Below, piece after piece: positions 5,307 through 25,026 of a DNA stretch of 64,000 nucleotides. Every line of letters starts with the position of its first letter. Positions within the stretch are counted from its first letter, which is position 1. Below the pieces are notes generated by a model that saw nothing but the letters and a program-made list of their open reading frames with translations, was not told the DNA's origin and ran no database searches. This stretch comes from Sphingomonas oryzagri. GTDB taxonomy: Bacteria; Pseudomonadota; Alphaproteobacteria; Sphingomonadales; Sphingomonadaceae. The stretch covers positions 737,208 to 801,207 of the forward strand of contig NZ_JARYGZ010000001.1 in the NCBI RefSeq assembly GCF_029906645.1. Direction: 5' to 3'. The position numbers were made by a program, and so were the translations under genes.

Positions 5307-5461
5307 CTGCTCGACGGCGCGGTATCCCACGATATGATGTTGCTCACGATCACCCCGCTTCCGAACAGACAATACCGGTAAGATACCAATGATCGCTTGT
5401 AAAGCTGATTTGGTCGGATACTATGCTCATATTCCACCAGGGGGTGCGGGGCAAAAGCGAG

Positions 5462-8017: not shown

Positions 8018-8021
8018 GGAG

Positions 8022-9731
8022 AGAGACAGGATGTTCGCGAAGCTCAATCTCTCGCTCCAGGCGCTTGGCCGGACGCTGATGCTGCCGATCGCGGTGCTGC
8101 CCGTGGCGGCGCTGATCCTGCGGCTAGGGCAGGACGATCTGCTGGGTCTGCCTTTCCTCGCGGCGGCGGGATCGGCGGTGTTCGCCAATCTGGGGCTGCT
8201 GTTCGCCGCCGGCGTCGCGGTCGGCCTCGCGCGTGAAAACCACGGTGCTGCGGGACTGGCCGGCATCGTCGCCTTCCTGATCGCCAGCAACGGCGCGCAG
8301 GCGCTGGTGGCTGTGCCGCATACGGTGGGGGCGGGGCTGGATGCGGCGAGCCAGGCCCTGGCGGTGGCGGATTTCCGAGCCAAGTCGATCGCGCGCCTCG
8401 GTGTGCCGCTCGGTATCCTGTCCGGTCTGATCGCGGGGCTGCTCTATAATCGCTATGCGACGATCCGGGTACCGGAGTTCCTGTCCTTCTTCGGCGGTCG
8501 TCGCTTCGTGCCGATCGTCTCGGGCCTTGCCGGCGTCGGCCTTGCGCTGGTGTTCGGCTATGCCTGGCCGGCGATCGGCAGCGCGATCGACGCGCTCAGC
8601 ACCGGTCTCGCACATGCCGGCTGGATCGGCATGTTCGTCTATGGCGTGCTCAACCGCCTGCTGCTGGTCACCGGTCTTCATCATATCATCAACAATGTAG
8701 TGTGGTTCATCGTCGGCAGTTACGGCGGGGCAACGGGCGACCTCAATCGCTTCTTCGCCGGCGATCCGAGCGCGGGCGGCTTCATGGCGGGGTTCTTCCC
8801 GGTGATGATGTTCGGCCTGCCTGCCGCCTGCCTCGCCATGTATCGCGCCGCACGGCCGGAGCAGCGGGCCGGCGTGGCGGGCATGTACCTGTCGCTGGCG
8901 CTGACATCCTTCCTGACCGGCGTGACCGAGCCGATCGAGTTCAGCTTCATGTTCGTGGCGCCCGTGCTCTATGCGCTCCATGCCCTGCTCACCGGCGCGG
9001 CGATGGCGCTGATGAGCCTGCTCGACGTCCATCTTGGCTTCGGATTCTCGGCGGGGCTGCTCGATTACATGCTCAACTACGGGCGCGCGACGCATCCGCT
9101 GCGGCTGATCCCGGTCGGGCTGGCTTATGCCGTCATCTATTACGGGATATTCTCGTTCGCGATCCGCCGGTTCGATCTCAAGACGCCGGGCCGCTCTCCC
9201 GAGGCGGATGGCGCCCCGATACGTGACGGCGGTATTTCCGACCGGGCGCCACTTTTCGTCACAGCGCTCGGTGGAGCAAACAACCTCAACCGGGTGGAGG
9301 CCTGCACCACCCGGCTGCGTATCCAGATCGCCGATTCGGCACTGGTCGATGAGGCGGCGCTGGGCAAGCTCGGCGCACGGGGAGTAATCCGGCCCGGACC
9401 CGGTTCGCTGCAGGTGGTGCTCGGGCCGGTGGCCGATCAGATCGCCGGCGAGATCAATGCCGTGCTGGGCGGGCGACGCGAAGCGAAACCGGCCGAGGTT
9501 CCACCGCAAGACTTGGTTCCGGACGGCCCCGCCTCAATCGACGCCAGGCTGCTCGGCATGTTGGGCGGCGCGGGGAATATCGAGGATGTCCACCGCACCC
9601 GCGATCGCACGTTGATCACCTTGCGTAGCCCGGTCGCGGTGGCTCCCCGCATCGAGGGTATCCCCGATGCGCGCGCGATCGCGATGATCGATCCGCTGCA
9701 CGCGCACCTTCTGCTGAACCCGGCCCGCTGA
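8022..9731 (+). CDS. nagE: PTS N-acetylglucosamine-specific EIICB permease
   Basis: Multi-TM EIIC region, then EIIB with CTTRLR cysteine motif (NRVEACTTRLRIQI), then a second degenerate EIIB-like copy (NIEDVHRTRDRTLITL). Shine-Dalgarno GAGGAGAGAG lies 6 nt upstream of the ATG. Confidence 0.9.
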   Translation, partial: RDRMFAKLNLSLQALGRTLMLPIAVLPVAALILRLGQDDLLGLPFLAAAGSAVFANLGLLFAAGVAVGLARENHGAAGLAGIVAFLIASNGAQALVAVPHTVGAGLDAASQALAVADFRAKSIARLGVPLGILSGLIAGLLYNRYATIRVPEFLSFFGGRRFVPIVSGLAGVGLALVFGYAWPAIGSAIDALSTGLAHAGWIGMFVYGVLNRLLLVTGLHHIINNVVWFIVGSYGGATGDLNRFFAGDPSAGGFMAGFFPVMMFGLPAACLAMYRAARPEQRAGVAGMYLSLALTSFLTGVTEPIEFSFMFVAPVLYALHALLTGAAMALMSLLDVHLGFGFSAGLLDYMLNYGRATHPLRLIPVGLAYAVIYYGIFSFAIRRFDLKTPGRSPEADGAPIRDGGISDRAPLFVTALGGANNLNRVEACTTRLRIQIADSALVDEAALGKLGARGVIRPGPGSLQVVLGPVADQIAGEINAVLGGRREAKPAEVPPQDLVPDGPASIDARLLGMLGGAGNIEDVHRTRDRTLITLRSPVAVAPRIEGIPDARAIAMIDPLHAHLLLNPAR

Positions 9732-14700: not shown

Positions 14701-15222
14701 CTCGGTCTCGATCGTTACCCCGAACTCGTCTCGATGGCGATCAATCGAGACGAGATGGTGATCGCGTCCGGCCGTTATCAGGCCGGCTATGACAGCCTTT
14801 CCGATCTCGAGGCCCGTCACGCCGATCAGCTTTCCTCCTACGGCAGGATGTGGGTGTGGGCGAACGAGGATTGTGCGCTGAGAGCGCTGGGGCGCAACGA
14901 CGACGCGAAGGCGACAGAAGCCAAGCTGGCGACCAAGCCCGACGATAATTGGAGCGCGGCCACCGCCGCTGCTGCGTGCCGCAACGACAGCAATGCCATC
15001 GCAGACATGCTGGTGGCGCGCTTGCGGGACGATGCTGCGCGACCCATGGCGCTCGGTCTCTTCATCACCTTCGAGGGACGGGAGGCGCACACCCCATTAG
15101 AGACCGCGATGCGCGCGGCGGTCGCCAAGGCCCGCGCGGTTCCGGAAGTTCAGGCGGAATTCCGGAAATATGGCCGCGCGATCCGCTATGCGGGGACGAC
15201 GAAAGGATGGAGCGAATTCTGA
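11722..15222 (+). CDS. Large secreted DUF3857-like / transglutaminase-like cysteine protease-fold protein with long C-terminal helical (TPR-like) extension
   Basis: Signal peptide VLAYLKRPLVPAAVILMASFLAIPGHTA. Transglutaminase-like core GYGDCKDKSLLLAVALRRLGIDA with downstream His/Asp. About 550 aa of Ala/Leu-rich helical repeats at the C-terminus. 1166 aa. Confidence 0.75.
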   Translation: MLAYLKRPLVPAAVILMASFLAIPGHTADSGAATAPDTKLSMSARTIPAEPVPSWIRERTIPEATKARLDGAQDGIAYLLSDEQYRTRADGHDSWFRLSTEVTNRSGLEAAGQISITYDPGFESVGVNFVHLIRNGKIIDLTGSTQFRVVEHEEDLDDGIVSGTLKAIANLPDVRVGDIIDYATTTHTRTSLWPGHAFYHLSQRYSDPLAMRALRFVWPAGMAPDVKAINSDVSVARHTSADGTDWEWTAIDPPAMQAEDDVPYTAFQWGRIDISTMKDWAELARWATGLYQGDESLPQDFSARLDAIAKAFPAPGDRLTEAARYVQDNIRYVGEEMGEGSYVPRRPSTVLARGYGDCKDKSLLLAVALRRLGIDAVPALAATKTGDRLPDRLPSPLDFDHVVVRAVIDGKVMWIDATGTHRGGRGTAIVPADFGYALPIRVGQTGLEHMDGYATHVGDVSIVEQFSVDETSATPLTLHVETRSTGARADSSRATWAASSVAKIADGNVEFYRRRFPGLVESKPLQLSDDRDGNTTTMIENYSMSRDAFAKAGILAKMITRAYLLQGVLPDRQPNPRVQPLGLNYDLVDEQTIDLHVKGRVLDPMADLDTKAGPIAFSRHTTKLPDGLRMVYRLDTGPRYFVSAKDAEAVYAVSDRIKDETGIEFYLDKSPQAAPVPQGIDAASWEPIRPDMAKAGDLMQKTDQPSKLAALSLLSALSDKVAHPSAVAGLIDGMKGAVLSDLQRPQAALAALQSSAAQYQGNAAILRLWIAYELDLGTGESVAAAMQKVAKSQPDALAGIDRQWVRIAMQKVQKLPSAKREAARGDMCMALAGVGWQQQPRTDFGDDTLGCAITAESLRGDLSDARAGLAKDPPTDTLVTLAIDRRHQALWPDIDRNAGDGFRKSLESEADRATAAAKASPKDYEVVAHQMQALRALGRFADALQAGEALARDKTQIEVTGNDAFWLVNEYASNLRALGRMDEAIAALDGLLALGLDRYPELVSMAINRDEMVIASGRYQAGYDSLSDLEARHADQLSSYGRMWVWANEDCALRALGRNDDAKATEAKLATKPDDNWSAATAAAACRNDSNAIADMLVARLRDDAARPMALGLFITFEGREAHTPLETAMRAAVAKARAVPEVQAEFRKYGRAIRYAGTTKGWSEF

Positions 15223-15253
15223 CGGTCAGCCGGTGGCGTGACGTTCTTCGCGC

Positions 15254-16231
15254 TCAGTGGCGATCGCGTGAAATCCATTCGAGCGCCGTGATCCCGCGCC
15301 GGCCGTTCGCACGGCCGAGCTGGACGATGACGTCGATCATCGATCGCGCATAGGCAAGCGTATCGGCACGATCGAGGCCGAGCCCCGCCTGCATCACCAT
15401 CAGCGCCAGTTGCTCCAGCGCACCTGCCGGCGAGCTTGCGTGGATGGTGGAGAAGGAGCCGGGGTGGCCGGTGTTGATCGCACGGAGGAAGCTCACCGTT
15501 TCGCGGCCGCGCAGTTCGCCGACGACGATCCGGTCGGGGCGGAGGCGCAGCGCCGCGTGCAGGAGGTCGTCGGTGCCGATGCGGGCCTCGCCCAGTTCGC
15601 CCTTCACCGCGACGAGGCCGAGGCTGTTGGCGTGGCGCAGCCGGACTTCGGGTGTGTCCTCGATCAGCACGATACGCTCGTCCGCCGGCACTTCGCGCAG
15701 CAAGGCGTTCAGGAAGGTGGTCTTGCCGCTCGACGTGCCGCCGGAGATCAGGATCGTGCGCCGGTCGCGCACCGCCCGTGCGAGGAAAGCCACGGGATCG
15801 ACCTGTGGATCGGGCATCGGCTCACGGGTGGCATCGGTCAGGAGCGGGCCGTGGTCATAGGCCGAGAGAGGGAGATCGACGAGGCGGTGGCGCCGGATCG
15901 CCAGCGCCCAATGCGCGCGCGTCGCGGAGGGCGCCACGAACTGCACGCGCGCGCCATCTGGCAGCACGGCGGAGAGCAGGGGGCGCTCGCGGTTCACGCC
16001 CTGGTGGCTGATCCGCGCCACCTGTTCGGCGAGGCGCTGGAGATGGCGGTCGTCGATTTCGGGCAGCGCGACGCGGCTCATGCCCGCGCCCGCCGCTTCG
16101 ACCCAGATCTCGCCGGGGCGGTTGACGAGGATCTCGGTCACGTCCTCTCGCGCGAGCCAGGGCTTGAGGGGGGCCAGATAGGCGTCGAGATAGACGCCGC
16201 CGCTCACCGGCAGGGCCTCGACGCTGCTCAT
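15254..16231 (-). CDS. virB11: Type IV secretion ATPase VirB11/TrbB family
   Basis: Walker A ISGGTSSGKTTFLNAL and VirB11 signature RPDRIVVGELRG. Start MSSVEALPV overlaps the virB10 stop. Confidence 0.9.
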   Translation of the reverse strand: MSSVEALPVSGGVYLDAYLAPLKPWLAREDVTEILVNRPGEIWVEAAGAGMSRVALPEIDDRHLQRLAEQVARISHQGVNRERPLLSAVLPDGARVQFVAPSATRAHWALAIRRHRLVDLPLSAYDHGPLLTDATREPMPDPQVDPVAFLARAVRDRRTILISGGTSSGKTTFLNALLREVPADERIVLIEDTPEVRLRHANSLGLVAVKGELGEARIGTDDLLHAALRLRPDRIVVGELRGRETVSFLRAINTGHPGSFSTIHASSPAGALEQLALMVMQAGLGLDRADTLAYARSMIDVIVQLGRANGRRGITALEWISRDRH

Positions 16232-17290
16232 CCGGCGTTGGAGGCGGTCGAGAAATCGAGATCGCGCGCGGTGAACACGCGGATCGGCTGACCTTGCAGC
16301 ACCTTCACCGTGGGGGCGATGTTGGTGTCGCGCTCCGCGGCGACCGAGGCCGCGCTCTGCCCGCCCGACACGATCACCGATGCGTTGCCCGCGATCGACG
16401 ACAGGCCGCCGACGACGGAGAGCAGAACGGCGGAGCTGAACCGCTTGAAGAAATGGCTGTCGACCTTGCCCGTCAGGCCGGACTCGCCGGAAAAATCCAC
16501 CGCCGGAGAGCCGAGCGCAATCGAGACGCCATCCGGCCGGATGAGGCGCGACCAGATCACGTAGGCGCGGGTCTGTCCGGAAGAGAGGCCGGACTTGTAT
16601 TGGCCGACGAGGCGCGAGGAGCGGGGGATCAGCACCTTGGTGCCGTCGAACGATTTCACGTCGCGGCTCACCACCGCGCGGACATAGCCCGGTAGATCGG
16701 TGTCGATCGCGGTTTCCAGCACAGCGGGGATCAAGGTGCCCTGCGCGATCGTGTTGGACGGCGACGTCATCGGCTCTGCGGTGGCGACGTCGGACGAGCC
16801 GCCGACGCGCAGCGCGAATTGATCGTTGTCGTCCAGCTTGTCGTTCGCCGTCTTGCCCGGTGTCGGCGCGGGGGTTGCGGCGGCAGCCGGCGTGGCCGGG
16901 GCCTGCGAATTGTCGAACACCATCGCAGGCGAGGCGGCGGCGGCGATGGCGGGGGCCGATACGGTTGGGGTGGGCATCGGCAGCGGCAAGACGGCTGCGG
17001 GACGCGGCGGCGCGACCGGCGCGGGAAGTGCCGCGACCGGGCCGGCGATCAAGGGCTGTGGGGCTGGCGCGGGCGTCCGGTGGGCGCTCATCGACCAGAA
17101 AGTGACGCCGCCGAGCAGCACGGCGATGCCGGCGCCAGCCACCAGGCCGAACGAATCCGATTTCCGGCCGCTCTGGGCGACCAGCGGATAGGCGTTGCGA
17201 CTTGCGAGCTGCAGTTCGCGCGGCTCGGTGAGGAGGCGGGGGTCGCTGTCCTCGATTGCGCGGAGCAGGATGGGCTGGCGGGTCGTGGTC
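16228..17290 (-). CDS. virB10: Type IV secretion protein VirB10/TrbI
   Basis: N-terminal TM, Pro-rich linker, C-terminal VirB10 domain (GTLIPAVLETAIDTDLPGYVRAVVSRDV...). Start MTTTRQPILL. Confidence 0.85.
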
Positions 17291-18086
17291 ATGGCCGGGC
17301 GCTCGCGGTCTGAGCGCCCGCCGGCGGTGTCGCATCGGAGGCCGGGTGCGGGGCGGGGGTGAGCGTCGCCACGAGCTTGCCCTGGCGCAGCACGAGTTGC
17401 GGCGGCACGCCGTCCACCACGACATATTCGCCCTGCACGCGGTAATTGACCGGCCCCTCCTGCCCGTCCGGCTCGCGCTGGAGGATGGCGGGCATCGAGG
17501 CATCCTTCGGCCAGGCGAGCCAGGTCGACTTGCCGTCGTCGAAGGCGCGCATCGGCAGGATCTGCTTCGATCCGCCGGTCGCCCAATCGAAATGGAGATC
17601 GGCGGGCGTCGCCTCAGGCACCTTCTCGGCAACCTGCGGCGCCGGTTCGGCGGGGGCGGGCGGCGGCGCGATTGCGATCGCCGGCTTGGGGCTTGGCGGA
17701 TAGGTGAAGCGCATGACGTAGACCGGCGTCCCCATCGGGGTCGAGACGAGATCGAACAGGTAGGTGCGGCGATCGGTCACCACCGTCATGTTGGTGCGCG
17801 CGCTCGGCATCATCGGCTTCACGAAGACGATCGAGGCATGCTTGTTGGGCGTCACCTGCCAGCTCGCGGAATCGCCGATCGCGATGTTGTCGATATGCTC
17901 GTCGTCGCCGAATTCGATTGTGGACTGGATACCGGTGTGACCGTGCACCGTCACGATATCGCTGGGATTGTAGAGGCGCGTGGCAATGCGTGGATCCTTC
18001 GCCAGCAGCGGCGTGGCGACCAGAGCGGCGTATGTGGATGCCGCGCCGAGCGCGGCGAGGGGCAGGAAGCGAATCATGACAGGCGG
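17289..18086 (-). CDS. virB9: Type IV secretion protein VirB9/TrbG/CagX
   Basis: Signal peptide MIRFLPLAALGAASTYAALVA, then the VirB9 N-domain (IATRLYNPSDIVTVHGHTGIQSTIEF). Overlaps the virB10 start and the virB6 stop. Confidence 0.85.
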   Translation of the reverse strand, partial: PPVMIRFLPLAALGAASTYAALVATPLLAKDPRIATRLYNPSDIVTVHGHTGIQSTIEFGDDEHIDNIAIGDSASWQVTPNKHASIVFVKPMMPSARTNMTVVTDRRTYLFDLVSTPMGTPVYVMRFTYPPSPKPAIAIAPPPAPAEPAPQVAEKVPEATPADLHFDWATGGSKQILPMRAFDDGKSTWLAWPKDASMPAILQREPDGQEGPVNYRVQGEYVVVDGVPPQLVLRQGKLVATLTPAPHPASDATPPAGAQTASARP

Positions 18087-19273
18087 GCCTTGACGGGAGT
18101 CTCGGGGCGGGCGCGGAAGCGGCTGCCGACGCCGTCGAGACGGCGATCGGCGCGCGGTGCGGGAAGGGCGGTGGCGGGCGCCATGCCCATCACCACGGTC
18201 TGCGTGCGGGACGGGGCGGTGCCGGGCGTGGAGGTACTGCTCTCGGACGGGGGCAGGGCCGCCAGCATTCCGCGTACCCGCTCGCTCGTCGGGCGGGCGC
18301 CGCCGTTCGTATCGGGCAGGACTGGCGGCAGGATCGTGGCGGGCGATTGCGAGGCGGCAGCGGGCGTTGCGCCCTCGGCCTGCAGGAAGGGGATGCGCCA
18401 GCCGGCGACCAGACCGCTCGCGACCCGCGCAACCATGATCATCAGCGCGGTGTAGACGCAGGCGGCGAGGAACAGGGCGGTGGCGCTCTTGCTGGCGACC
18501 TCGGTCGAATCCATCAGCGCGTCGCGGATCAGCGGGGTGATGAGGCTGATCGCCGCGCCGCCGATCAGCACGGTGAAAAGCGGTGTAAGCGCACTCGACA
18601 CCACCGCCTTCAGCCAGCCCTCGAACAGGCCGCGCGTGGCGGGGAAGATGGCGAGTACGATAAACACGGGTCCCAGCGCCAGCAGGGCCGCCAGCGCCAC
18701 CTTGGCGGTGACCAGCACGCCGACCGTGCCGACCAGCAGCATCAGACCGGAAATCCACATCATCCCCTGCGGCGACAGGATAGAGATACCGGTGGAGGAA
18801 GCACCATTGCCGGTCGCGTTGGCGGCCGCGACGGCATTCTGCGCATTTTGCTGATGGGTGCTGTCGGCGATCGCCTGGAAGACGACATCCAGCTTGTCGG
18901 CGAAGGCGGCGGTGGCCGATCCATGGGTGCCGGCGATGACGGATGCGAGTTGGTCCGGCGCGCCGACCGCCAGCATCCAGATCACGTTCTGGTAGGCGAG
19001 CCACGATGTCGCGAAGGTCAGCACCATGCCCAGCGTCAGCATACGCGGCGTGAGCGAACCGATACCGAGCCGGGTACGGCCGGTCAGCAGGCCGATCGCG
19101 AAGATCGCGACGTAGAGCGTCAGCAGGATGGTCAGCGCCGGGATCAGCGCGCCGTGATCGCCGAAGAGGCGACCGAAGGCGATCTGGGTGCCCTCGCCGG
19201 TGCGGCAGTCGATCGCGCGGAGCGCCTGCGCGAGACCGCCGGTCTCGATGTCGAGGGCAGGGCAGGCGTTCAC
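18074..19273 (-). CDS. virB6: Type IV secretion protein VirB6/TrbL (polytopic membrane)
   Basis: Six or more TM segments and a TrbL/VirB6-like core with an Ala/Pro/Ser-rich tail. Likely GTG start at 19273 overlapping the virB4 stop (GTGA), with GGAAGCGG Shine-Dalgarno. The track ORF extends further upstream. Confidence 0.75.
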   Translation of the reverse strand: MNACPALDIETGGLAQALRAIDCRTGEGTQIAFGRLFGDHGALIPALTILLTLYVAIFAIGLLTGRTRLGIGSLTPRMLTLGMVLTFATSWLAYQNVIWMLAVGAPDQLASVIAGTHGSATAAFADKLDVVFQAIADSTHQQNAQNAVAAANATGNGASSTGISILSPQGMMWISGLMLLVGTVGVLVTAKVALAALLALGPVFIVLAIFPATRGLFEGWLKAVVSSALTPLFTVLIGGAAISLITPLIRDALMDSTEVASKSATALFLAACVYTALMIMVARVASGLVAGWRIPFLQAEGATPAAASQSPATILPPVLPDTNGGARPTSERVRGMLAALPPSESSTSTPGTAPSRTQTVVMGMAPATALPAPRADRRLDGVGSRFRARPETPVKARLS

Positions 19274-21669
19274 TCGGCCGCTTCCGAATAGGCCGGTTCG
19301 TCGCCGGTGACGGGCCATGGCGTGCCCGTCAGCGCCTCGAACCAGGCGGCGGGCGCGTCGCCCAGCTCCTCCCGCAGGCGATCGAGCTTGCGCACGCTCG
19401 CCTCGCGGCCGGAGAGCACCGTCAGCAGGTCCGGTTCGCCGGCGAGATCGAGCCGCGCCACCACCGAATGGTTGGCATGGCGGACGAGGAAACAGCGGCT
19501 GTGTGCGGGCAGCTGTCGGATCAGCTCCAGCTCGTGGTCGGAAAGACCGAAGCCCTCGCAATAATCCTCCGGCCGGGCGCGCGGATTGGGCGTGAAGATC
19601 ATCGTCGCGGTCTGCTCGACGATCGCCGCCGATATGCGGCTGTCGAGCGCATCACGCGCCGATTGCGTTGCGAAGCCCACCAGCGCGTTGCGTTTGCGCA
19701 GCGTCTTCAGCCAGTCGCGGATGCGCGCGGCGAAGACCGGATCGTCGAGCGCCTTCCAGCCCTCGTCGATCAGGATCATCGTCGGCTCCCCGTCCAGCCG
19801 CTCGTCGACGCGGTGGAACAGGTAGAGCATGGTCGGCGTGCGCAGCGTCGGGCTGTCCAGCAGCGCCGTCATGTCGAAGCCGAGCGTCCGCGCGTCGAGA
19901 TCGAGCGCGTCGACCGCGTTATCGAACAGCCAGGCATGTTCGCCGCCGTTGATCCACGGATCGAGGCGCGAAGCGAGGTCGCCCGCCTCGGGCCGGCGCG
20001 ATCCGCTCAGCAGCTCGCGGAAATAGCGGAGGCGACGGAAGCCGGGATCGGCCTCCATGCAGGCATCGACCGCACCGGCGATGGCAGCCAGCTCGTCCGG
20101 TCCCTCGGCGGCGAGCATAACGCCCAACCAGTCGCGCAGGAAGGCGCGGTTGACGGGCGTGTCGGCCAGCGCCAGCGGGTTGAAGCCGGTCGGCTGGCCC
20201 GGCTGCAGCTGCGCGTAGTGGCCGCCACAGGCGCGCAGGAAGATCTCGGCGCCGCGATCCTTGTCGAACAGGATGGTACGGGGACCAAACTTCTGCGCCT
20301 GCGCGGCGAGGAAGTTGAGCACCACCGTCTTGCCCGAGCCGGACGGGCCGATGACGGTGAAGTTGCCGAGATCGCCCTCGTGGAAGTTGAAGAAATAGGG
20401 CGTCGCGCTGGTCGTCTCGAAGACGGTGGCGGCCGGCCCCCAATGGTTGCCGTCGGGCTTGCCGAAAGGCATGCCGTGGAGCGACAGGAAGCCCGCCGCA
20501 TTGGCGGTCGAGATCAGCGCGCGGCGGACGAGATAGGCCTCGTTGCCGGGGAACTGGCCCCAGAAGGCCGGCTCCATGTTGACGTCCTCGCGCGCCGCGA
20601 TCGCGCCCATGTCGGCGAGTGCCGCACCGGCAGACGCCATCGCGCCGTCGAGCGCGCCGAGGTCGTCGGCGCGGACCAGCAGCGAGAGGTGATGGTCGCC
20701 GAAGCCGGCCTGCCCTGCGCCCAGCGCGTCGCGGGCGGCGAGCATCTCGCGGCGCTCGGCCCCGGCCTCCTCGTCGGCGGAGCGGAGGCGGCGGATGGCG
20801 AGGTCGATCCGCTCGCGGGCGATTTGGCGGTCGGCAGGCGCGAAGCTCTCGGTCAGCACCAGTTCGTGCGGCAGGCGCAGGATGTTGTCGATCAGGCCGG
20901 CGCGGGTGGCGTCGGGATATTCCTTCACTGAGAGCATGCCGGAGAAAGAGCGTCCCCCGGCCTGTGCCGTCTCGATCGCGTCGAGGCCGAAGCTGACGCG
21001 CGCATAGGGGATGTGGTGGCCGAGGTCGGTGTCCTCGGGCGGCAGCAGCACAGGCCGCATCTCGCCATTGTAGATGGCGGAGAGGATCTCCAGCGGCTCG
21101 GAACACAGCCCGCCGACGCCCTGATAGGTCCCGAGCTGGCGCGCGCCATAGGCCTCCAGCGCGGCCACGAGGGCGGTCGCCGCGGCGTCGAGAGCGCGGA
21201 TGTCGGCGATTTCCGGCTCGGCATCCTTGCCGGCCATCAGGCGCTTGAGCTTGTCCGGCCAACCGGTCTTGCCGCGCGCGGGGCGGCGGACGATGCTCAG
21301 CACCTGCTCGTTGACGAAGAGGCGGCGCGCGTCGAGCCGGCGTTGCCAGCGCTCGTTGAGGAGCGCGGCGAACGGCTCCTCCGGCGCGCCGTCGAGCGTC
21401 ACGCGCACCCGGCGTCGCACGACATGGTGATAGACCACGAAACGCGCATCCAGCACCGATCGCAGCATCGTCTCGCGCACGGCGAGATGATGGTCGAGCG
21501 CGGCGTCGTCCTCGGTCTCGAAGGGGAGGCCAGGCACCTGGATCATCCGCATCACCGCGCCGTCGCGCAGGCGCAGCGTCCGGTCGTCGAGATGGCGCGC
21601 GTAAGGCAGGCGGTCGCCTGCCTTCGCCTCCCTGGCCCCCCAGGCCGCGGCTCCGGTCCAGTTCTTCAT
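19270..21669 (-). CDS. virB4: Type IV secretion ATPase VirB4/TrbE/CagE
   Basis: 799 aa with Walker A VIGPSGSGKTVVLNFL and Walker B TMILIDEGW. Confidence 0.92.
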   Translation of the reverse strand: MKNWTGAAAWGAREAKAGDRLPYARHLDDRTLRLRDGAVMRMIQVPGLPFETEDDAALDHHLAVRETMLRSVLDARFVVYHHVVRRRVRVTLDGAPEEPFAALLNERWQRRLDARRLFVNEQVLSIVRRPARGKTGWPDKLKRLMAGKDAEPEIADIRALDAAATALVAALEAYGARQLGTYQGVGGLCSEPLEILSAIYNGEMRPVLLPPEDTDLGHHIPYARVSFGLDAIETAQAGGRSFSGMLSVKEYPDATRAGLIDNILRLPHELVLTESFAPADRQIARERIDLAIRRLRSADEEAGAERREMLAARDALGAGQAGFGDHHLSLLVRADDLGALDGAMASAGAALADMGAIAAREDVNMEPAFWGQFPGNEAYLVRRALISTANAAGFLSLHGMPFGKPDGNHWGPAATVFETTSATPYFFNFHEGDLGNFTVIGPSGSGKTVVLNFLAAQAQKFGPRTILFDKDRGAEIFLRACGGHYAQLQPGQPTGFNPLALADTPVNRAFLRDWLGVMLAAEGPDELAAIAGAVDACMEADPGFRRLRYFRELLSGSRRPEAGDLASRLDPWINGGEHAWLFDNAVDALDLDARTLGFDMTALLDSPTLRTPTMLYLFHRVDERLDGEPTMILIDEGWKALDDPVFAARIRDWLKTLRKRNALVGFATQSARDALDSRISAAIVEQTATMIFTPNPRARPEDYCEGFGLSDHELELIRQLPAHSRCFLVRHANHSVVARLDLAGEPDLLTVLSGREASVRKLDRLREELGDAPAAWFEALTGTPWPVTGDEPAYSEAAE

Positions 21670-21942
21670 GGCGCGTAGCTGTTGCAGCCCCAGCGCTTGT
21701 GATTGCGCACGCGGGGGCAGCGGCTGACCTTGGTCAGCCAGAGATCGAACACCCGCGGCTCGCGCAGGCAGGCGAGATAGCCGATGCCGTGGACCAACAG
21801 CGCGACGGGCAACGCCCAGAAGCTGCGGGTGATCAGGAAGGCCTCCGTCGTCACGCCCATGTTGATCACGAAGAAGCTGTAGGTGACGCCCCCGAACATC
21901 TGCGGGCGGGTCAGCGCGCGGAAGACCGGGGCGCGCTGCATC
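21666..21942 (-). CDS. virB3: Type IV secretion protein VirB3
   Basis: MQRAPVFRALTRPQMFGGVTYSFFVINMGVTTEAFLIT..., about 92 aa with two TM helices. Overlaps the virB4 start. Confidence 0.8.
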
Positions 21943-22249
21943 AGTGCGCCACCATCGCGGTCGACTGGATGCCCGAGACGATCGCGCCCGCGCCGAACAG
22001 CACGAAGCAGCCGATGATCACGGTCGCGCCGAACCGCCAGTTCATCCGGCCGGTCAGCATCATGAAGCCGACCATCGCGACCGCGATCACCGCGACGGCG
22101 GTGGCGACATTGCCCATCAGCGTGCCCTGCAGCCAGCCGAGCGCGGCGATGATCGGGCCGGAGCCGGCGGGGTTGGCGCCGGCGGCTTGCGCGAAGGCGG
22201 AGGAGGGCAGCAGGGCGGCTGCGAGCAGGGCGGCGATACGCTTGGTCAT
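21941..22249 (-). CDS. virB2: Type IV secretion pilin VirB2/TrbC
   Basis: MTKRIAALLAAALLPSSAFAQAAG long signal peptide, then a hydrophobic pilin core (GWLQGTLMGNVATAVAVIAVAMVGFMMLTG). Stop/start share one nt with virB3 (TGATG). Confidence 0.8.
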   Translation of the reverse strand: MTKRIAALLAAALLPSSAFAQAAGANPAGSGPIIAALGWLQGTLMGNVATAVAVIAVAMVGFMMLTGRMNWRFGATVIIGCFVLFGAGAIVSGIQSTAMVAH

Positions 22250-22890
22250 GGAATGGCAAGTCCTGTCGAGATGTCCGGCGTCAGCCGGTCGATGATGGTG
22301 GAGACGTAGTTGCGCGTCTCCGCGATGCGCGGCAGGCCGCCGGCGCGGATCACCCGGCCCGGCCCGGCATTGTAGGCGGCGAGCGCACGCTCGACGTCGC
22401 CATCGAACGTATCGAGCATCTGGCGGAGGTAATGCGCGCCGCCGTCGAGATTGGCGGCGGGATCCCTCGCATCGACCGCCAGCGCGCGCGCGGTTCCGGG
22501 CATCAATTGAGTGAGGCCTACGGCCCCTTTGGTGCTGACGGCGGCGGGGTGCCAGCGGCTTTCCTGCCAGACCAGTGCGGCCAGCAGGCTCGGGCTGACG
22601 CCGTAGCGGGCTGCCGCCGTCTGCAGCGGCGCGCGCAAGGTATCCGGAACCTGCGTCGGCGCGGCGATCTGCGTGACGGCAGCGGCGGGAACGAACGGAA
22701 GCGTGTCGGGCTTCTCGGCGTCGCCGGCCTTCGCGGACACCCATTGGACTTCGGCGCCCCCGCTACGGACATGGACGTCGCCCTGGTCGTCGATCTCCAG
22801 CACATCGGCATGGGCGATCGTCCCGGCGCAGAGCGACAGGATCGAAAACGCCACCGATGCCGCCCAAAGCCGCAAACCCGCCCCACTCAT
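22246..22890 (-). CDS. virB1: VirB1-like lytic transglycosylase (SLT domain)
   Basis: Signal peptide MSGAGLRLWAASVAFSILSLCAG. SLT motifs LLAALVWQESRW, GAVGLTQLMPGTA, AYNAGPGRV. Stop overlaps the virB2 start. Confidence 0.8.
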   Translation of the reverse strand: MSGAGLRLWAASVAFSILSLCAGTIAHADVLEIDDQGDVHVRSGGAEVQWVSAKAGDAEKPDTLPFVPAAAVTQIAAPTQVPDTLRAPLQTAAARYGVSPSLLAALVWQESRWHPAAVSTKGAVGLTQLMPGTARALAVDARDPAANLDGGAHYLRQMLDTFDGDVERALAAYNAGPGRVIRAGGLPRIAETRNYVSTIIDRLTPDISTGLAIP

Positions 22891-23061
22891 ACACAGAAGG
22901 ATGAAGCGACCGTACGCCGCCCACGCCCGATCTCGGCTTTGGATGTGACGGATCGGCGTCAGTTCGGAGACGGAATGAAGATGCGACGCGGCAATGCTTT
23001 GAGAATGATTTTCAAAGGGTTCGCGCACGGCCGGATTTGCGGGCTATCGCCCGTTCGTTTC

Positions 23062-23087
23062 CCGACATTAAAAACTGTTAATGTCGG
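23062..23087. promoter_or_regulatory. Perfect 10-bp-arm palindrome CCGACATTAA-aaactg-TTAATGTCGG in the divergent virB1 / phosphoesterase promoter region
   Basis: Read directly. AT-rich, and the only strong palindrome in the 333-nt divergent intergenic region. Confidence 0.5.
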
Positions 23088-23088
23088 A

Positions 23089-23106
23089 TCGTCACGCGCC
23101 TGTCAC
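23089..23106 (+). promoter_or_regulatory. Pho-box-like direct repeats TCGTCAC-gcgc-CTGTCAC
   Basis: Two 7-bp repeats matching CTGTCAT-like PhoB half-sites with 4-bp spacing (11-bp periodicity), about 120 nt upstream of the phosphoesterase-family gene. Confidence 0.4.
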
Positions 23107-23223
23107 GTTCCGGTGGTGGGTCGACGCCGGGCACGGGGGCCGTGACCTGCAGCTTTGCTGGTATTCCTTTCCTGGGCGTGCGTCCTCCCTCGGCGCGCGT
23201 CCCGTTCGGCTGTGGAGAATTCC

Positions 23224-25026
23224 ATGATCCGCAAGCATTTGTCTTCCGCGTTAAAAATCGGCTGCATGGCGCTCCTTCTGAGCTCCTGTGGTCACTCGCG
23301 CGATAGCGGCAGCAGCACGGGCGGCGGTGGCACCACCACGCCTGTTTCTGAACAGGACGCGCTGTCGACGGCGACGCCGATCAAGCATCTCGTCGTCATC
23401 TTCGGCGAGAACGAGTCGTTCGATCACTATTTCGGCACCTACCCGCAGTCGAAGGATCCGAGCGGCGAACCGACCGAGGCATGGGTCGCCCCGTCCAACG
23501 TCGCCAACGTCAACGGCTACATCCGCAACGCCTCGCTGCTGACCGCCAACCCGAACACCACGAACGCCTCCAACCTGGCGAAGGTGTCGGATGCGAGCAT
23601 GCTCAACCCGTTCCGCCTCGACCGGTCGCAGTTCGACACGGCGAGCCAGAACCACGCCTACACGCCCGAGCAGCTGGCGACGAACAACCTGAAGATGGAC
23701 GCTTTCGTGGCGAACACCGGCAAGGGCGGCACCGGCGGCACGCCTAGCCCGAGTTCGGGCGCGGCATCCGGTGCGTTCACCACCGCCGCGCAGGTGATGG
23801 GCTATTTCGACGGCAACACCGTCACCGGCCTGTGGAACTACGCCCAGAATTTCGCGATGAGCGACAACGCCTTCACCGACAGCTTCGGCCCGTCGACACC
23901 GGGTGCGCTCAACGTGGTTTCGGGCACCACTTCGGGCGCCGACAAGCTCGTGACGGGTGACACGATCCCCGACGGCCAGGGCAAGTTCACGATGGTGAAC
24001 GATGCCGATCCGACCGGCGACATGTGCTCGAACGCGGCGATCGTCACGACCATGGCGGGCAAGAATATCGGCGACCTGCTCAACGCCGCCAAGATCACCT
24101 GGGGCGGCTTCATGGGTGGCTTCGACACGTCCGCGACCAATGCCAACGGCACCACCGGCTGCGCCCGCAGCACGGTATCGCCGAACACCAGCCGTACGGT
24201 GAAGGACTATACCCCGCACCATGCCTGGTTCCAGTATTACGCCTCGACGATGAACCCGAACCATACCCGTCCGAGCTCGACGGCGATGATTGGTCACACC
24301 GAAACCGCCGACGGCCCGGTCGATCCCAATTCGGCCACGATCTCGACCAGCAAGGCGGTCAACCACCAGTATGACTATAACGACTTCGTCGCGGCGGTGA
24401 GCGCGGGCAACTTCGCCTCTGTCAGCTACATCAAGGCGCCTGCGTTCCAGGATGCCCATCCGGGCAATTCCAACGCGCTCGACGAGCAGGCCTTCGTCGC
24501 CAAGGTGATCAACTTCCTCCAGCAGCAGCCGGACTGGAAGAACACCGCCGTGATCGTCACCTACGACGACTCGGACGGCTGGTACGATCACCAGTCCCCG
24601 AACGTGCTGCGCTCGTCCTTCGACGCGACCACGACCGCGAGCGTCAACCTGCCGAGCGGTACCGTCACAGGCGCCGACCAGATGAACTCGCAGGGCGTCT
24701 GCACCGGCCCGAACGCCAAGCAGGCGACGGACGTCAACGGCAAGAAGATCAACGGCCGCTGCGGCCCGGGCACCCGCATCCCGTTCATCCTGATCTCGCC
24801 CTACGCCAAGGTGAACTACGTCGACTCGACGCCGATTTCCCAGGCTTCGGTGATCCGCTTCATCGAGGATAACTGGCTGAACGGCCAGCGTATCGGGGGC
24901 GGCTCTGCGGATGCCGATGCGGGCAGCATCATGGGGATGTTCGACTTCTCCTCCGCCCCGCACACCACGGCCGTGTTCATCGATCCGACGACCGGCAAGA
25001 AGACGGCGACCGCCCCCACCGCCTGA
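23224..25026 (+). CDS. Phosphoesterase family lipoprotein (phospholipase C / AcpA acid-phosphatase family)
   Basis: Lipobox LLSSCG. N-terminal HLVVIFGENESFDHYFGTYP and central YTPHHAWFQYY are characteristic of the PLC/AcpA phosphoesterase family. 600 aa. Confidence 0.8.
   Translation: MIRKHLSSALKIGCMALLLSSCGHSRDSGSSTGGGGTTTPVSEQDALSTATPIKHLVVIFGENESFDHYFGTYPQSKDPSGEPTEAWVAPSNVANVNGYIRNASLLTANPNTTNASNLAKVSDASMLNPFRLDRSQFDTASQNHAYTPEQLATNNLKMDAFVANTGKGGTGGTPSPSSGAASGAFTTAAQVMGYFDGNTVTGLWNYAQNFAMSDNAFTDSFGPSTPGALNVVSGTTSGADKLVTGDTIPDGQGKFTMVNDADPTGDMCSNAAIVTTMAGKNIGDLLNAAKITWGGFMGGFDTSATNANGTTGCARSTVSPNTSRTVKDYTPHHAWFQYYASTMNPNHTRPSSTAMIGHTETADGPVDPNSATISTSKAVNHQYDYNDFVAAVSAGNFASVSYIKAPAFQDAHPGNSNALDEQAFVAKVINFLQQQPDWKNTAVIVTYDDSDGWYDHQSPNVLRSSFDATTTASVNLPSGTVTGADQMNSQGVCTGPNAKQATDVNGKKINGRCGPGTRIPFILISPYAKVNYVDSTPISQASVIRFIEDNWLNGQRIGGGSADADAGSIMGMFDFSSAPHTTAVFIDPTTGKKTATAPTA

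What the first reader, a model, noticed from the sequence alone, without database searches (positions are those of the whole stretch)
15254..22890. Compact VirB-like type IV secretion cluster with only eight genes (virB1-B2-B3-B4-B6-B9-B10-B11), no virB5/B7/B8 and no coupling protein or relaxase
Eight tightly coupled minus-strand genes encode a lytic transglycosylase, pilin, VirB3, VirB4 ATPase, VirB6, VirB9, VirB10 and VirB11. Consecutive genes overlap by ATGA/GTGA/TGATG junctions, so no unannotated ORF fits between them: virB4 runs straight into virB6, and virB6 into virB9. Canonical MPF-T systems require VirB8 (inner-membrane core), VirB7 (lipoprotein partner of VirB9) and VirB5 (minor pilin), and conjugative or effector systems add VirD4. 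None is present, and no relaxase, oriT-like repeat, integrase or tRNA boundary flanks the cluster. GC content matches the surrounding chromosome. This is either a reduced T4SS architecture or one whose missing parts are diverged beyond recognition or encoded elsewhere. In both cases it is an unusual machine sitting between secreted-enzyme genes.
Basis: partly seen in the sequence, partly recalled or inferred. Interest (0 to 1): 0.8.

Follow-up and report, generated by a model that had tools for sequence, protein, structure and literature searches.

The report
Stripped-down type IV secretion gene cluster
This Sphingomonas chromosome carries an intact eight-gene type IV secretion machine that lacks several parts thought indispensable; the same reduced set is conserved across many related bacteria, so it probably works as it is, but what it transports is unknown.

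Summary
Eight translationally coupled minus-strand genes (15254-22890) encode VirB1-like transglycosylase, VirB2, VirB3, VirB4, VirB6, VirB9, VirB10 and VirB11. No VirB5, VirB7, VirB8, VirD4, relaxase or integrase was found in other frames, in the 64-kb window (Sphingomonas oryzagri chromosome), or within 10 kb of 80 related loci.

The same gene order occurs in 68 of 80 related genomes, mostly Sphingomonadales, among housekeeping genes and never on a PLSDB plasmid. All eight genes are under purifying selection (dN/dS 0.02-0.19). The nearest relatives that keep virB8 have a small gene plus virB8 exactly between virB6 and virB9, so one deletion explains the loss. The VirB6 tail is disordered and is not a hidden VirB8.

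The reduced set is not new. It was noted for Erythrobacter (2009) and Citromicrobium (2012, 2016) and never characterised.

One new lead: 45 of 78 relatives have a canonical Pho box at the operon promoter, often beside ppk/ppx. In this window the strong Pho box faces the neighbouring phosphoesterase gene. Only a degenerate copy faces the operon.

Most likely this is a working, coupling-protein-independent machine for periplasm-exterior transport or a short pilus. Whole-genome absence of VirB8 is untested.

The parts
22246..22890 (-). virB1-like lytic transglycosylase (214 aa from ATG 22890; alternative GTG start at 22854). Signal peptide, a poorly conserved ~85-aa N-terminal region, and an SLT domain at residues 90-194.
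   Evidence: Pfam SLT 3.5e-29. Starts. Present in 54 of 68 complete relatives. Conservation profile.
21941..22249 (-). virB2 pilin (102 aa). It is the most conserved small component: 95% column identity over residues 61-80.
   Evidence: Pfam TrbC/VirB2 2.3e-17. Conservation. dN/dS 0.08 against L001.
21666..21941 (-). virB3 (91 aa)
   Evidence: Pfam VirB3 2.2e-28. NCBIfam NF010474 74.4 bits against a cut-off of 74. dN/dS 0.02.
19270..21669 (-). virB4 ATPase (799 aa). Walker A GPSGSGKT at residue 441 and Walker B MILIDE at residue 631 are intact.
   Evidence: TIGR00929 705 bits, above its cut-off of 643. Closest solved chain is R388 TrwK, 1.3e-132. Motifs.
18074..19273 (-). virB6 (399 aa). A helical membrane bundle spans residues 1-295. 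It is followed by a ~100-aa Arg-rich, Pro/Ala/Ser/Thr-rich disordered tail, probably cytoplasmic, that holds two short conserved motifs (DxRVRxxVAAL at ~330-340 and GVGSRFR at ~381-387).
   Evidence: Pfam TrbL 1e-35. AlphaFold2 with 63 sequences gives pLDDT 80-94 for the bundle and 43-57 for the tail. Foldseek best matches are R388 TrwI/VirB6 chains 8rtd_L and 8rt9_F, target-normalised TM-score 0.72. Motifs. Composition.
17289..18077 (-). virB9 (262 aa). Signal peptide, no cysteine, and N- and C-terminal domains joined by a Pro-rich linker.
   Evidence: Pfam CagX 2.6e-53. TIGR02781 192 bits, below its cut-off of 217.7. Closest solved chain is TrwF, 6.3e-19. Cysteine count.
16228..17292 (-). 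virB10 (354 aa). Short cytoplasmic N-terminus, one transmembrane helix (~47-69), a Pro/Ala-rich linker (73-170) and a conserved TrbI C-terminal domain.
   Evidence: Pfam TrbI 2.3e-50. Closest solved chains are TrwE 6.9e-30 and TraF 1.1e-26. Composition. The AlphaFold2 model was of low confidence and is not used.
15254..16231 (-). virB11 ATPase (325 aa). The Walker A motif GGTSSGKT and the stretches I read as the Asp, Walker B and His boxes are intact.
   Evidence: TIGR02788 302.8 bits, above its cut-off of 249.95. Motifs.
22945..22973 (-). Degenerate three-unit direct repeat with an 11-nt period (CCGTCTC-cgaa-CTGACGC-cgat-CCGTCAC), 55-83 nt upstream of the virB1 ATG. It may be a decayed Pho box for the operon. 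It scores only 5.3 bits against the family matrix.
   Evidence: Conserved block in the alignment with L001, L003 and L002. Position. Scores.
23062..23087 (.). Perfect 10-bp inverted repeat CCGACATTAA-N6-TTAATGTCGG in the divergent intergenic region. It is a candidate operator of unknown regulator.
   Evidence: Its TTAA-N6-TTAA core recurs only in L001 and L003.
23089..23106 (+). Strong Pho box TCGTCACGCGCCTGTCAC. It is oriented towards the divergent phosphoesterase lipoprotein gene (23212-25026, + strand), not towards the secretion operon.
   Evidence: It is the only matrix hit above 10 bits in the whole 64-kb window, at 20.6 bits. It is conserved in L001-L003. The neighbour is Pfam PF04185 with a lipobox.

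Best explanation
What is shown:
- The eight genes form an intact, translationally coupled operon for a stripped-down VirB-type (MPF-T) type IV secretion apparatus: VirB1-like transglycosylase, VirB2 pilin, VirB3, VirB4 ATPase, VirB6, VirB9, VirB10 and VirB11 ATPase.
- The operon belongs to a chromosomal lineage with this same gene order in at least 68 species-level genomes. Most are Sphingomonadales, with sporadic copies in Niveispirillum, Polaromonas and Asticcacaulis.
- The lineage is under purifying selection, is flanked by housekeeping genes, and is absent from known plasmids.
- At the locus there is no virB5, virB7, virB8, coupling protein or relaxase.

What is inferred:
- The loss arose by deletion of the segment between virB6 and virB9. 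In the nearest relatives that segment holds a small secreted-protein gene and virB8.
- The remaining machine works as it stands. Without a coupling protein and relaxase it cannot conjugate or recruit cytoplasmic effectors in the usual way.
- The most likely mechanism is a coupling-protein-independent, envelope-spanning device. A VirB9/VirB10 channel would span the outer membrane, a VirB3/VirB4/VirB6 platform would sit in the inner membrane, and VirB2 would form a short pilus or piston. VirB1 would open the peptidoglycan, and VirB4 and VirB11 would supply the energy.
- Such a device would move material between periplasm and exterior, either DNA inwards as in ComB or periplasmic cargo outwards as in Ptl. 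Alternatively it may only display a filament. Direction and cargo are unknown.
- In most of the lineage the operon carries a canonical Pho box at its promoter and sits beside ppk/ppx, so it is probably induced by phosphate starvation there.
- In this window that link is weak. The strong Pho box faces the neighbouring phosphoesterase gene, and only a degenerate repeat faces the operon.
For: Identity and integrity:
- Pfam and NCBIfam assignments; intact ATPase motifs; 4-nt overlaps between genes; the VirB6 model matches R388 TrwI.

Conservation:
- 80 related loci were retrieved, and 68 hold the full B2-B11 set. The gap is at most 71 nt between B4 and B6 and at most 200 nt between B6 and B9.
- dN/dS is 0.02-0.19 against the closest relative.

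Chromosomal and non-mobile:
- The flanks differ between lineages and are housekeeping genes such as ppk, ppx, a TonB-dependent receptor and glycogen phosphorylase.
- No plasmid in PLSDB carries a VirB4 at 60% identity or more.
- There are no tRNA or repeat boundaries.
- Zheng 2016 reports that this copy co-evolves with Erythrobacter genomes.

Absence of parts:
-.
- Persson 2009 flags Erythrobacter genomes as lacking VirB8 after a genome-wide Pfam screen.

Deletion model:
- The sister systems L081 and L083 read B2-B3-B4-B6-small gene-B8-B9-B10-B11.

Pho box:
- A GTCAY-N6-GTCAY motif lies on the coding strand 72-124 nt upstream of the first gene in 45 of 78 loci. Only 94 such matches occur in 3.08 Mb.
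- All 45 sites are distinct sequences, with 1.4-2.5 bits per half-site position and about 0.1-0.2 bits in the spacers.
- The motif fits the published definition of a Pho box.
Against: - VirB8 is held to be essential and to have recognisable homologues in all diderm type IV systems (Guglielmini 2014). A working machine without it is therefore unproven.
- I could not scan a whole genome. Sphingomonads commonly carry other type IV systems with VirB8, so supply in trans is possible.
- No expression or phenotype data exist in the searched literature.
- The VirB10 structure prediction failed (mean pLDDT 42.8). A small cryptic element in its N-terminal part is therefore excluded only by composition, conservation and the lack of a Pfam hit.
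- The Pho box is absent from all Sphingomonas and Sphingomicrobium loci. The element facing the operon in this window scores only 5.3 bits.
Confidence: 0.6

Rival explanations
1. Split system. VirB8, a VirB7-like lipoprotein and perhaps VirB5 or VirD4 are encoded elsewhere in the genome, as in Rickettsiales, or are borrowed from a second type IV system. The assembled machine would then be conventional.
For: VirB8 genes are abundant in sphingomonads: 3944 hits to the S. aerolata plasmid VirB8. Some Erythrobacter strains carry a second type IV system. Whole genomes could not be scanned here.
Against: Nothing was found in the 64-kb window or within 10 kb of 80 loci. Persson 2009 found no PF04335 hit in two Erythrobacter genomes that carry the cluster. 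The second system occurs in only 4 of 14 Erythrobacter genomes, whereas the reduced copy is in all 14. The sister lineage keeps virB8 inside the operon, which points to deletion rather than relocation.
Confidence: 0.2
2. DNA-uptake machine resembling ComB. The reduced system would import external DNA across the outer membrane, for transformation or as a phosphorus source.
For: There is no coupling protein, relaxase or VirB5, as in ComB (my own knowledge of ComB). Zheng 2012 proposed DNA import for the Citromicrobium copy. The Pho box and ppk/ppx neighbourhood in most lineages fit phosphorus scavenging.
Against: VirB11 and VirB1 are present here, whereas ComB, as I recall it, lacks both. VirB10 scores 199 bits against the VirB10 model and 84 bits against ComB10. 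ComB needs ComB8 and ComB7 (my own knowledge). There is no experimental support.
Confidence: 0.25
3. Two-step exporter resembling Ptl. Proteins exported to the periplasm by Sec or Tat would be pushed out through the VirB9/VirB10 channel.
For: The component set is closest to Ptl in lacking a coupling protein and VirB5 while keeping VirB11 (my own knowledge of Ptl). Exported proteins flank the operon in this window. In some relatives Tat-signal ferritin-like or DUF1996 proteins lie directly upstream on the same strand.
Against: No candidate cargo gene is conserved next to the operon across lineages. Ptl itself has VirB7 and VirB8 homologues (my own knowledge).
Confidence: 0.2
4. Part of an integrative conjugative element. 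A 2025 preprint assumes this for the Erythrobacter copy next to the photosynthesis gene cluster.
For: The preprint describes the same gene set as the secretion system of an element inserted near a tRNA-Arg. A tRNA-Arg lies about 10 kb away in this window.
Against: No relaxase, coupling protein, integrase or repeat boundaries were found in the window or in the flanks of the 80 loci. The cluster sits in conserved synteny with ppk/ppx and a TonB-dependent receptor. It is never on plasmids. Its virB4 phylogeny follows the genomes.
Confidence: 0.04
5. Decaying remnant of a once-complete system, with no present function.
For: Three or four canonical parts are missing. One truncated B2-B3-B4 copy exists in a metagenome-assembled genome (L013).
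Against: The open reading frames are intact and coupled in 68 genomes. dN/dS is 0.02-0.19. The ATPase motifs are intact. A promoter motif is conserved.
Confidence: 0.03

Closest known systems
Incomplete virB operon of Citromicrobium and Erythrobacter (Persson 2009 PMC2702493; Zheng 2012 PMC3338782; Zheng 2016 PMC4919336)
   Same: The gene set and order are the same (virB2-B3-B4-B6-B9-B10-B11, with a transglycosylase upstream). It is chromosomal, present in all Erythrobacter genomes compared, and reported as lacking VirB8. Erythrobacter and Citromicrobium loci are among the 80 relatives, at 66-69% VirB4 identity.
   Different: This copy is in Sphingomonas oryzagri and in a different neighbourhood: a phosphoesterase gene and a DUF3857 gene rather than the small TPR gene and ppk. 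It lacks the strong operon-facing Pho box of the Erythrobacteraceae copies.
Bordetella pertussis Ptl system (from my own knowledge)
   Same: No coupling protein, relaxase or VirB5. VirB2, B3, B4, B6, B9, B10 and B11 are present. Ptl is the precedent for type IV transport that starts from the periplasm.
   Different: Ptl has VirB7 (PtlI) and VirB8 (PtlE) homologues and no VirB1, and its cargo genes (ptx) lie directly upstream. Here B7 and B8 are absent, B1 is present, and no cargo is evident.
Helicobacter pylori ComB DNA-uptake system (from my own knowledge)
   Same: A type IV system without coupling protein, relaxase or VirB5 that works inwards.
   Different: ComB has ComB7 and ComB8 and lacks VirB11 and VirB1. 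The VirB10 here scores far better against the VirB10 model than against ComB10 (199 against 84 bits).
Canonical MPF-T systems (R388 Trw, pKM101 Tra, Agrobacterium VirB/D4)
   Same: They are the closest solved homologues for VirB4, B6, B9 and B10: TrwK 1.3e-132, TrwF 6.3e-19, TrwE 6.9e-30, and TrwI by fold.
   Different: Those systems have VirB5, B7, B8 and a coupling protein. As I recall the R388 structure (Macé et al. 2022), VirB8 forms the arches and part of the inner-membrane complex, and VirB5 caps the stalk.
Sister sphingomonad systems that keep virB8 (S. aerolata plasmid NZ_CP098765; S. phyllosphaerae chromosome)
   Same: They are the nearest relatives outside the family: VirB4 and VirB11 55%, VirB3 62%, VirB2 64% identity. 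They also lack VirB5, and no VirD4 is nearby. Their VirB6 carries the same kind of long tail.
   Different: They keep a small secreted-protein gene plus virB8 between virB6 and virB9. They have a second virB2 and no virB1, and they lie next to Rhs/YD-repeat toxin genes. They have no Pho box.

Membership tests
MPF-T (VirB-type) type IV secretion system | VirB4-family ATPase | tested here: met
   TIGR00929 705 bits, above its cut-off of 643; Walker A and B motifs intact.
MPF-T (VirB-type) type IV secretion system | Outer-membrane core proteins VirB9 and VirB10 | tested here: met
   Pfam CagX 2.6e-53 and TrbI 2.3e-50; closest solved chains are TrwF and TrwE.
MPF-T (VirB-type) type IV secretion system | Inner-membrane components VirB3 and VirB6 | tested here: met
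   Pfam VirB3 2.2e-28 and TrbL 1e-35; the VirB6 model matches R388 TrwI with a target-normalised TM-score of 0.72.
MPF-T (VirB-type) type IV secretion system | VirB8 (bitopic protein with an NTF2-like periplasmic domain), said to be recognisable in all diderm systems (PMC4027160) | tested here: not met
   No PF04335 hit in the three minus-strand frames of the locus or in any window gene. tblastn with the sister VirB8 finds nothing at E<1 in the window or the 80 loci. No space between B6 and B9. The VirB6 tail is disordered. The rest of the genome was not tested.
MPF-T (VirB-type) type IV secretion system | VirB2 pilin, VirB5 minor pilin and VirB7 lipoprotein | tested here: inconclusive
   VirB2 is present (Pfam 2.3e-17). 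No VirB5 family hit and no small lipoprotein ORF were found in or beside the operon. VirB9 has no cysteine for a disulphide partner. Small, fast-evolving VirB7-like genes elsewhere cannot be excluded.
Conjugative or effector-translocating type IV system | Coupling protein (VirD4/TraG) and, for conjugation, a relaxase and oriT | tested here: not met
   No such family in any gene of the 64-kb window or among recurrent flank families of the 80 loci. No plasmid-borne copy.
Ptl-type exporter | No coupling protein and no VirB5, but with VirB7 and VirB8 homologues and cargo genes co-transcribed upstream | tested here: not met
   The first two features hold. VirB7 and VirB8 are absent, and no conserved cargo gene lies upstream. 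It may work like Ptl, but it is not a member.
ComB-type DNA-uptake system | comB2-4 and comB6-10 gene set without VirB11 or VirB1 | tested here: not met
   VirB11 and VirB1 are present and B7 and B8 are absent. ComB10 model 84 bits against VirB10 model 199 bits. DNA uptake itself is not testable with these tools.
Reduced virB operon of Erythrobacteraceae and Citromicrobium (literature) | Chromosomal virB2-B3-B4-B6-B9-B10-B11 in that order with nothing between B4/B6 and B6/B9 | tested here: met
   The order is the same in the window and in the Erythrobacter, Citromicrobium, Porphyrobacter and Qipengyuania loci. Described.
Pho regulon member | An 18-nt Pho box (two 7-nt direct repeats, 4-nt spacer) at the promoter, oriented with the gene (PMC4415409) | tested here: inconclusive
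   Met in 45 of 78 relatives. In this window the operon-facing element is degenerate at 5.3 bits, and the strong box (20.6 bits) faces the other way. Induction by phosphate starvation is not testable here.

The most novel reading that the evidence does not exclude
A type IV secretion machine that truly works without VirB8, VirB5, VirB7 and a coupling protein, so lacking the arches and the stalk cap. It would be switched on by PhoB under phosphate starvation in most Sphingomonadales, and it would serve phosphorus scavenging, for example by importing extracellular DNA into the periplasm. This would define a smaller minimal architecture for diderm type IV systems and a new physiological role for them.
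Probability: 0.15. Interest if true: 0.85.

Novelty: new member of a known kind. Interest (0 to 1): 0.5.

Why it matters
Structural models of diderm type IV systems treat VirB8 as a universal, essential part: the arches, plus part of the inner-membrane complex. A lineage that has kept the other components under purifying selection in dozens of genera without virB8 at the locus is a natural experiment on what the minimal machine is.

The lineage is also a core feature of abundant marine and soil bacteria (Erythrobacteraceae, Novosphingobium, Sphingomonas), and its role there is unknown. The Pho-box link gives a concrete condition, phosphate starvation, under which to look for expression, structure and phenotype.

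For this window alone the cluster is one more copy of something already noted in comparative-genomics papers.

Tried and rejected
Hidden or fused VirB8:
- Hidden genes in other frames: rejected (Pfam on three frames; tblastn in six frames).
- Cryptic VirB8 fold in the VirB6 tail: rejected. The tail is disordered, and it is also present in the sister system that keeps VirB8.
- Cryptic fold in the VirB10 N-terminus: the AlphaFold2 model was unusable (mean pLDDT 42.8, even for the conserved C-terminal domain). The idea is rejected only on composition (64% Pro/Ala/Ser/Thr/Gly), weak conservation and the absence of a Pfam hit.

Mobility and regulation:
- Genomic island boundaries: none found.
- CtrA-type TTAA-N7-TTAA regulation: only a lineage-specific TTAA-N6-TTAA palindrome was found.
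- Sigma-70 promoter and terminator scans gave nothing above chance.

Neighbouring genes as substitutes or cargo:
- The small secreted TPR protein next to the operon in Erythrobacteraceae as a VirB7 substitute: it has no homologue in this window.
- Conserved cargo gene: none recurs across lineages.

Dead ends:
- An exact-match look-up of VirB4 failed. VirB6 identified the source genome instead.
- A search for an S. oryzagri VirB8 among the top 120 VirB8 hits found none, which is inconclusive.
- Literature searches for phosphate-regulated type IV systems in sphingomonads found nothing relevant.

Full report
**1. Observation**

The region 15254-22890 holds eight minus-strand genes. Seven junctions were checked: six are 4-nt ATGA or GTGA overlaps and one (B2/B3) is a 1-nt TGATG overlap. 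Public gene calls for the same DNA give the same coordinates for the genes on the retrieved contig, virB6 to virB11.

Pfam assigns the genes, in order, to SLT (a VirB1-like transglycosylase), TrbC/VirB2, VirB3, CagE_TrbE_VirB (VirB4), TrbL/VirB6, CagX/VirB9, TrbI/VirB10 and T2SSE (VirB11). All are far above threshold. NCBIfam agrees: the VirB4 and VirB11 models are above their curated cut-offs, and VirB3 just reaches its cut-off. The VirB4 and VirB11 nucleotide-binding motifs are intact.

**2. Are the missing parts hidden?**

- Pfam on all three minus-strand frames of 15100-23300 returns only the eight expected families.
- The VirB8 proteins of the nearest VirB8-containing relatives, used as tblastn queries, hit nothing at E<1 (S. 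aerolata plasmid query) or E<0.05 (S. phyllosphaerae query) in any frame of the window or of the 80 related loci, about 1.5 Mb in all.
- No small lipoprotein ORF lies in or beside the operon. VirB9 has no cysteine.
- Only one protein is longer than its canonical counterpart: VirB6, with a 100-residue tail.
 - With a 63-sequence alignment, AlphaFold2 models residues 1-295 confidently as a helical bundle. Its best PDB matches are the TrwI/VirB6 chains of R388, with a target-normalised TM-score of 0.72.
 - The tail has pLDDT of about 43-57, with one short conserved helix.
 - It is 60% Pro/Ala/Ser/Thr/Gly and 11% Arg.
 - The same kind of tail exists in the sister system that still has VirB8. It is therefore not a VirB8 substitute.
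- The VirB10 prediction was of too low confidence to use. Its N-terminal linker is 64% Pro/Ala/Ser/Thr/Gly and poorly conserved.

**3. Surroundings**

The window is Sphingomonas oryzagri chromosome. VirB6 is 100% identical to the NCBI protein from a 2.9-Mb contig.

Every other called gene was scanned. The window holds:

- an N-acetylglucosamine PTS cluster and TonB-dependent receptors;
- ribosomal protein genes and fatty-acid synthesis genes;
- serS, surE, rimO, dksA and similar housekeeping genes.

There is no coupling protein, relaxase, integrase or further type IV component. One tRNA-Arg lies about 10 kb away, and no repeats bracket the cluster.

The immediate neighbours are:

- a convergent 1162-aa DUF3857/transglutaminase-like protein;
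- a divergent PF04185 phosphoesterase that carries a lipobox.

**4. Relatives**

A scan of one genome per species with VirB4 returned more than 566 matches, and the best 80 were kept. All are at 66% VirB4 identity or more.

- Taxa: Sphingomonas, Sphingomicrobium, Novosphingobium, Erythrobacter, Porphyrobacter, Qipengyuania, Citromicrobium, Tsuneonella and others. There are also two Niveispirillum, one Polaromonas and one Asticcacaulis.
- Gene content: 68 loci contain the whole B2-B11 set, and 54 of those have B1. Most of the remaining loci are cut by contig ends; one (L013) is a truncated B2-B3-B4 copy.
- Spacing: the distance from the B4 stop to the first aligned residue of B6 never exceeds 71 nt. 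From B6 to B9 it never exceeds 200 nt. No locus has room for a VirB8 gene.
- Selection: dN/dS against the closest relative is 0.02-0.19 for all eight genes.
- Flanks: they are not shared with the window beyond the three closest loci. They are housekeeping genes and fall into a few lineage-specific contexts.
- Plasmids: no plasmid in PLSDB carries a VirB4 at 60% identity or more.

This is a chromosomal lineage, largely vertically inherited, and functional. It is neither an island nor a relic.

**5. How virB8 was lost**

The best plasmid hit (S. aerolata, VirB4 55%) and a chromosomal relative (S. phyllosphaerae) share one arrangement. It reads virB2-B3-B4-B6-(small secreted protein)-virB8-B9-B10-B11-virB2'. 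They too lack VirB5, and no coupling protein is nearby. Removing the two genes between virB6 and virB9 yields the present order, so a single deletion is the simplest history. This is an inference.

**6. A regulatory lead**

In 45 of 78 relatives a direct repeat with consensus CTGTCAC-N4-yTGTCAT lies on the coding strand, 72-124 nt upstream of the first gene. It is followed by a Shine-Dalgarno sequence and the start codon.

- Only 94 such matches exist in 3.08 Mb of locus sequence counted on both strands.
- All 45 sites are distinct sequences. Half-site positions carry 1.4-2.5 bits, and spacers carry about 0.1-0.2 bits.
- This is the published form of a PhoB box: two 7-nt repeats separated by 4 nt, CTGTCAT in E. 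coli.
- In the same loci, further matches precede ppk, ppx and a divergent lipoprotein/TonB-receptor pair. The operon sits next to ppk/ppx in about 40 loci.
- The motif is confined to Erythrobacteraceae and Novosphingobium. No Sphingomonas or Sphingomicrobium locus has it, and neither do the sister systems.

In this window the only strong match in 64 kb (20.6 bits, 23089-23106) faces the phosphoesterase gene. A degenerate three-unit repeat faces the operon at 22945-22973. It is conserved in the three closest relatives but scores only 5.3 bits. Phosphate control is therefore likely for much of the family and doubtful here.

**7. Mechanism**

Shown: an intact set of VirB1, B2, B3, B4, B6, B9, B10 and B11, with no coupling protein and no relaxase.

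Inferred: the machine cannot conjugate or recruit cytoplasmic effectors conventionally. The known precedents for coupling-protein-independent type IV systems are Ptl (export of a periplasmic toxin), ComB (DNA import) and Bartonella Trw (adhesion). This comparison rests on my own knowledge.

I commit to an envelope-spanning VirB9/VirB10 channel on a VirB3/B4/B6 platform, with a short VirB2 filament or piston, powered by VirB4 and VirB11. It would act between periplasm and exterior. My rough split among possible roles is:

- DNA import, possibly for phosphorus: 0.25
- export of periplasmic cargo: 0.2
- a surface filament only: less than either.

By sequence, VirB10 is nearer to the VirB10 model (199 bits) than to ComB10 (84 bits), and the closest solved homologues of VirB4, B9 and B10 are the R388 Trw chains.

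**8. What is known**

- Persson 2009 marked two Erythrobacter genomes 'lacks VirB8' after a Pfam screen.
- Zheng 2012 listed virB2B3B4-virB6-virB9B10B11 in Citromicrobium and suggested DNA import.
- Zheng 2016 found this copy in all 14 Erythrobacter genomes, co-evolving with them.
- A 2025 preprint lists the same genes, with the transglycosylase, the TPR gene and an OmpR/PhoB-family regulator, but reads them as part of an integrative conjugative element. My data do not support that reading.
- Guglielmini 2014 states that VirB8 has recognisable homologues in all diderm systems.

In the searched library I found no functional or structural study of this lineage and no mention of the Pho box.

**9. 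Verdict**

The cluster is a new member of an already noted but uncharacterised kind.

The main open point is whether VirB8-like and VirB7-like proteins are supplied from elsewhere in the genome, which these tools could not test. The Pho-box association is the new, testable element. Interest is moderate.

Noticed in passing
L018-L078 (45 loci), 72-124 nt upstream of the first type IV gene, e.g. L039 around 8680 and L036 around 8630: A canonical Pho box (CTGTCAC-N4-yTGTCAT) sits at the promoter of the reduced virB operon in Erythrobacteraceae and Novosphingobium. Further boxes lie near ppk, ppx and a divergent lipoprotein/TonB-receptor pair. I found no report of this in the literature searched.
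   Followed up: yes
window 23062-23087: A perfect 10-bp inverted repeat CCGACATTAA-N6-TTAATGTCGG lies directly beside the Pho box, between the phosphoesterase gene and virB1. Its TTAA-N6-TTAA core recurs only in the two closest relatives (L001, L003). The regulator is unknown.
   Followed up: partly
L013:9337-13119: A truncated copy (virB2-B3-B4 only, at 75-87% identity) is followed by an outer-membrane beta-barrel gene. It is in the same metagenome-assembled genome that also has a complete copy (L014).
   Followed up: partly
L083:5481-19467 and L081:3348-17329: The sister type IV systems that keep virB8 lie next to Rhs/YD-repeat toxin genes. L083 also encodes several small secreted paralogues of about 110-130 aa and a second virB2, with no VirD4 nearby. 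This may be a type IV system linked to Rhs toxins.
   Followed up: partly
L023:6258-6674, L039:8119-8559 and 19 other loci: A small secreted TPR protein (about 100-146 aa) is encoded directly upstream of the operon, on the same strand but ahead of the Pho box, in Erythrobacteraceae and Novosphingobium. It has no homologue in the window.
   Followed up: partly
L006, L015, L020, L021, L024, L025: In this group, which includes the copies outside Sphingomonadales (Niveispirillum, Polaromonas), a divergent OmpR-family response regulator lies immediately upstream. In most of them a histidine kinase lies within about 2.7 kb. This suggests a dedicated two-component regulator in those lineages.
   Followed up: partly
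L007, L012, L013, L026 downstream; L004, L012, L013, L026, L029 upstream: In some Sphingomonas and Sphingomicrobium loci the operon is preceded on the same strand by one or two Tat-signal ferritin-like genes, in L004 and L026 with an Nramp transporter gene next to the operon. In four loci it is followed by a small outer-membrane beta-barrel gene.
   Followed up: no
window 16228-17292 (VirB10): AlphaFold2 with a 61-sequence alignment gave mean pLDDT 42.8. Confidence was low even for the strongly conserved TrbI domain, which has solved homologues. This is unexplained, and the model was not used.
   Followed up: no
window 3159-9731: An N-acetylglucosamine utilisation cluster: nagA, a SIS-domain protein, a fused PTS EIIA-HPr-EI and a PTS EIICB. 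A TonB-dependent receptor gene is nearby.
   Followed up: no
window 57879-58613 (-) and 58036-58353 (+): A Gly/Ser/Thr-rich 244-aa ORF has a C-terminus that looks to me like a PEP-CTERM sorting signal (untested). It overlaps a spurious-looking acidic/proline-rich ORF on the other strand. My simple gene caller handled the region 56.6-59 kb poorly.
   Followed up: no
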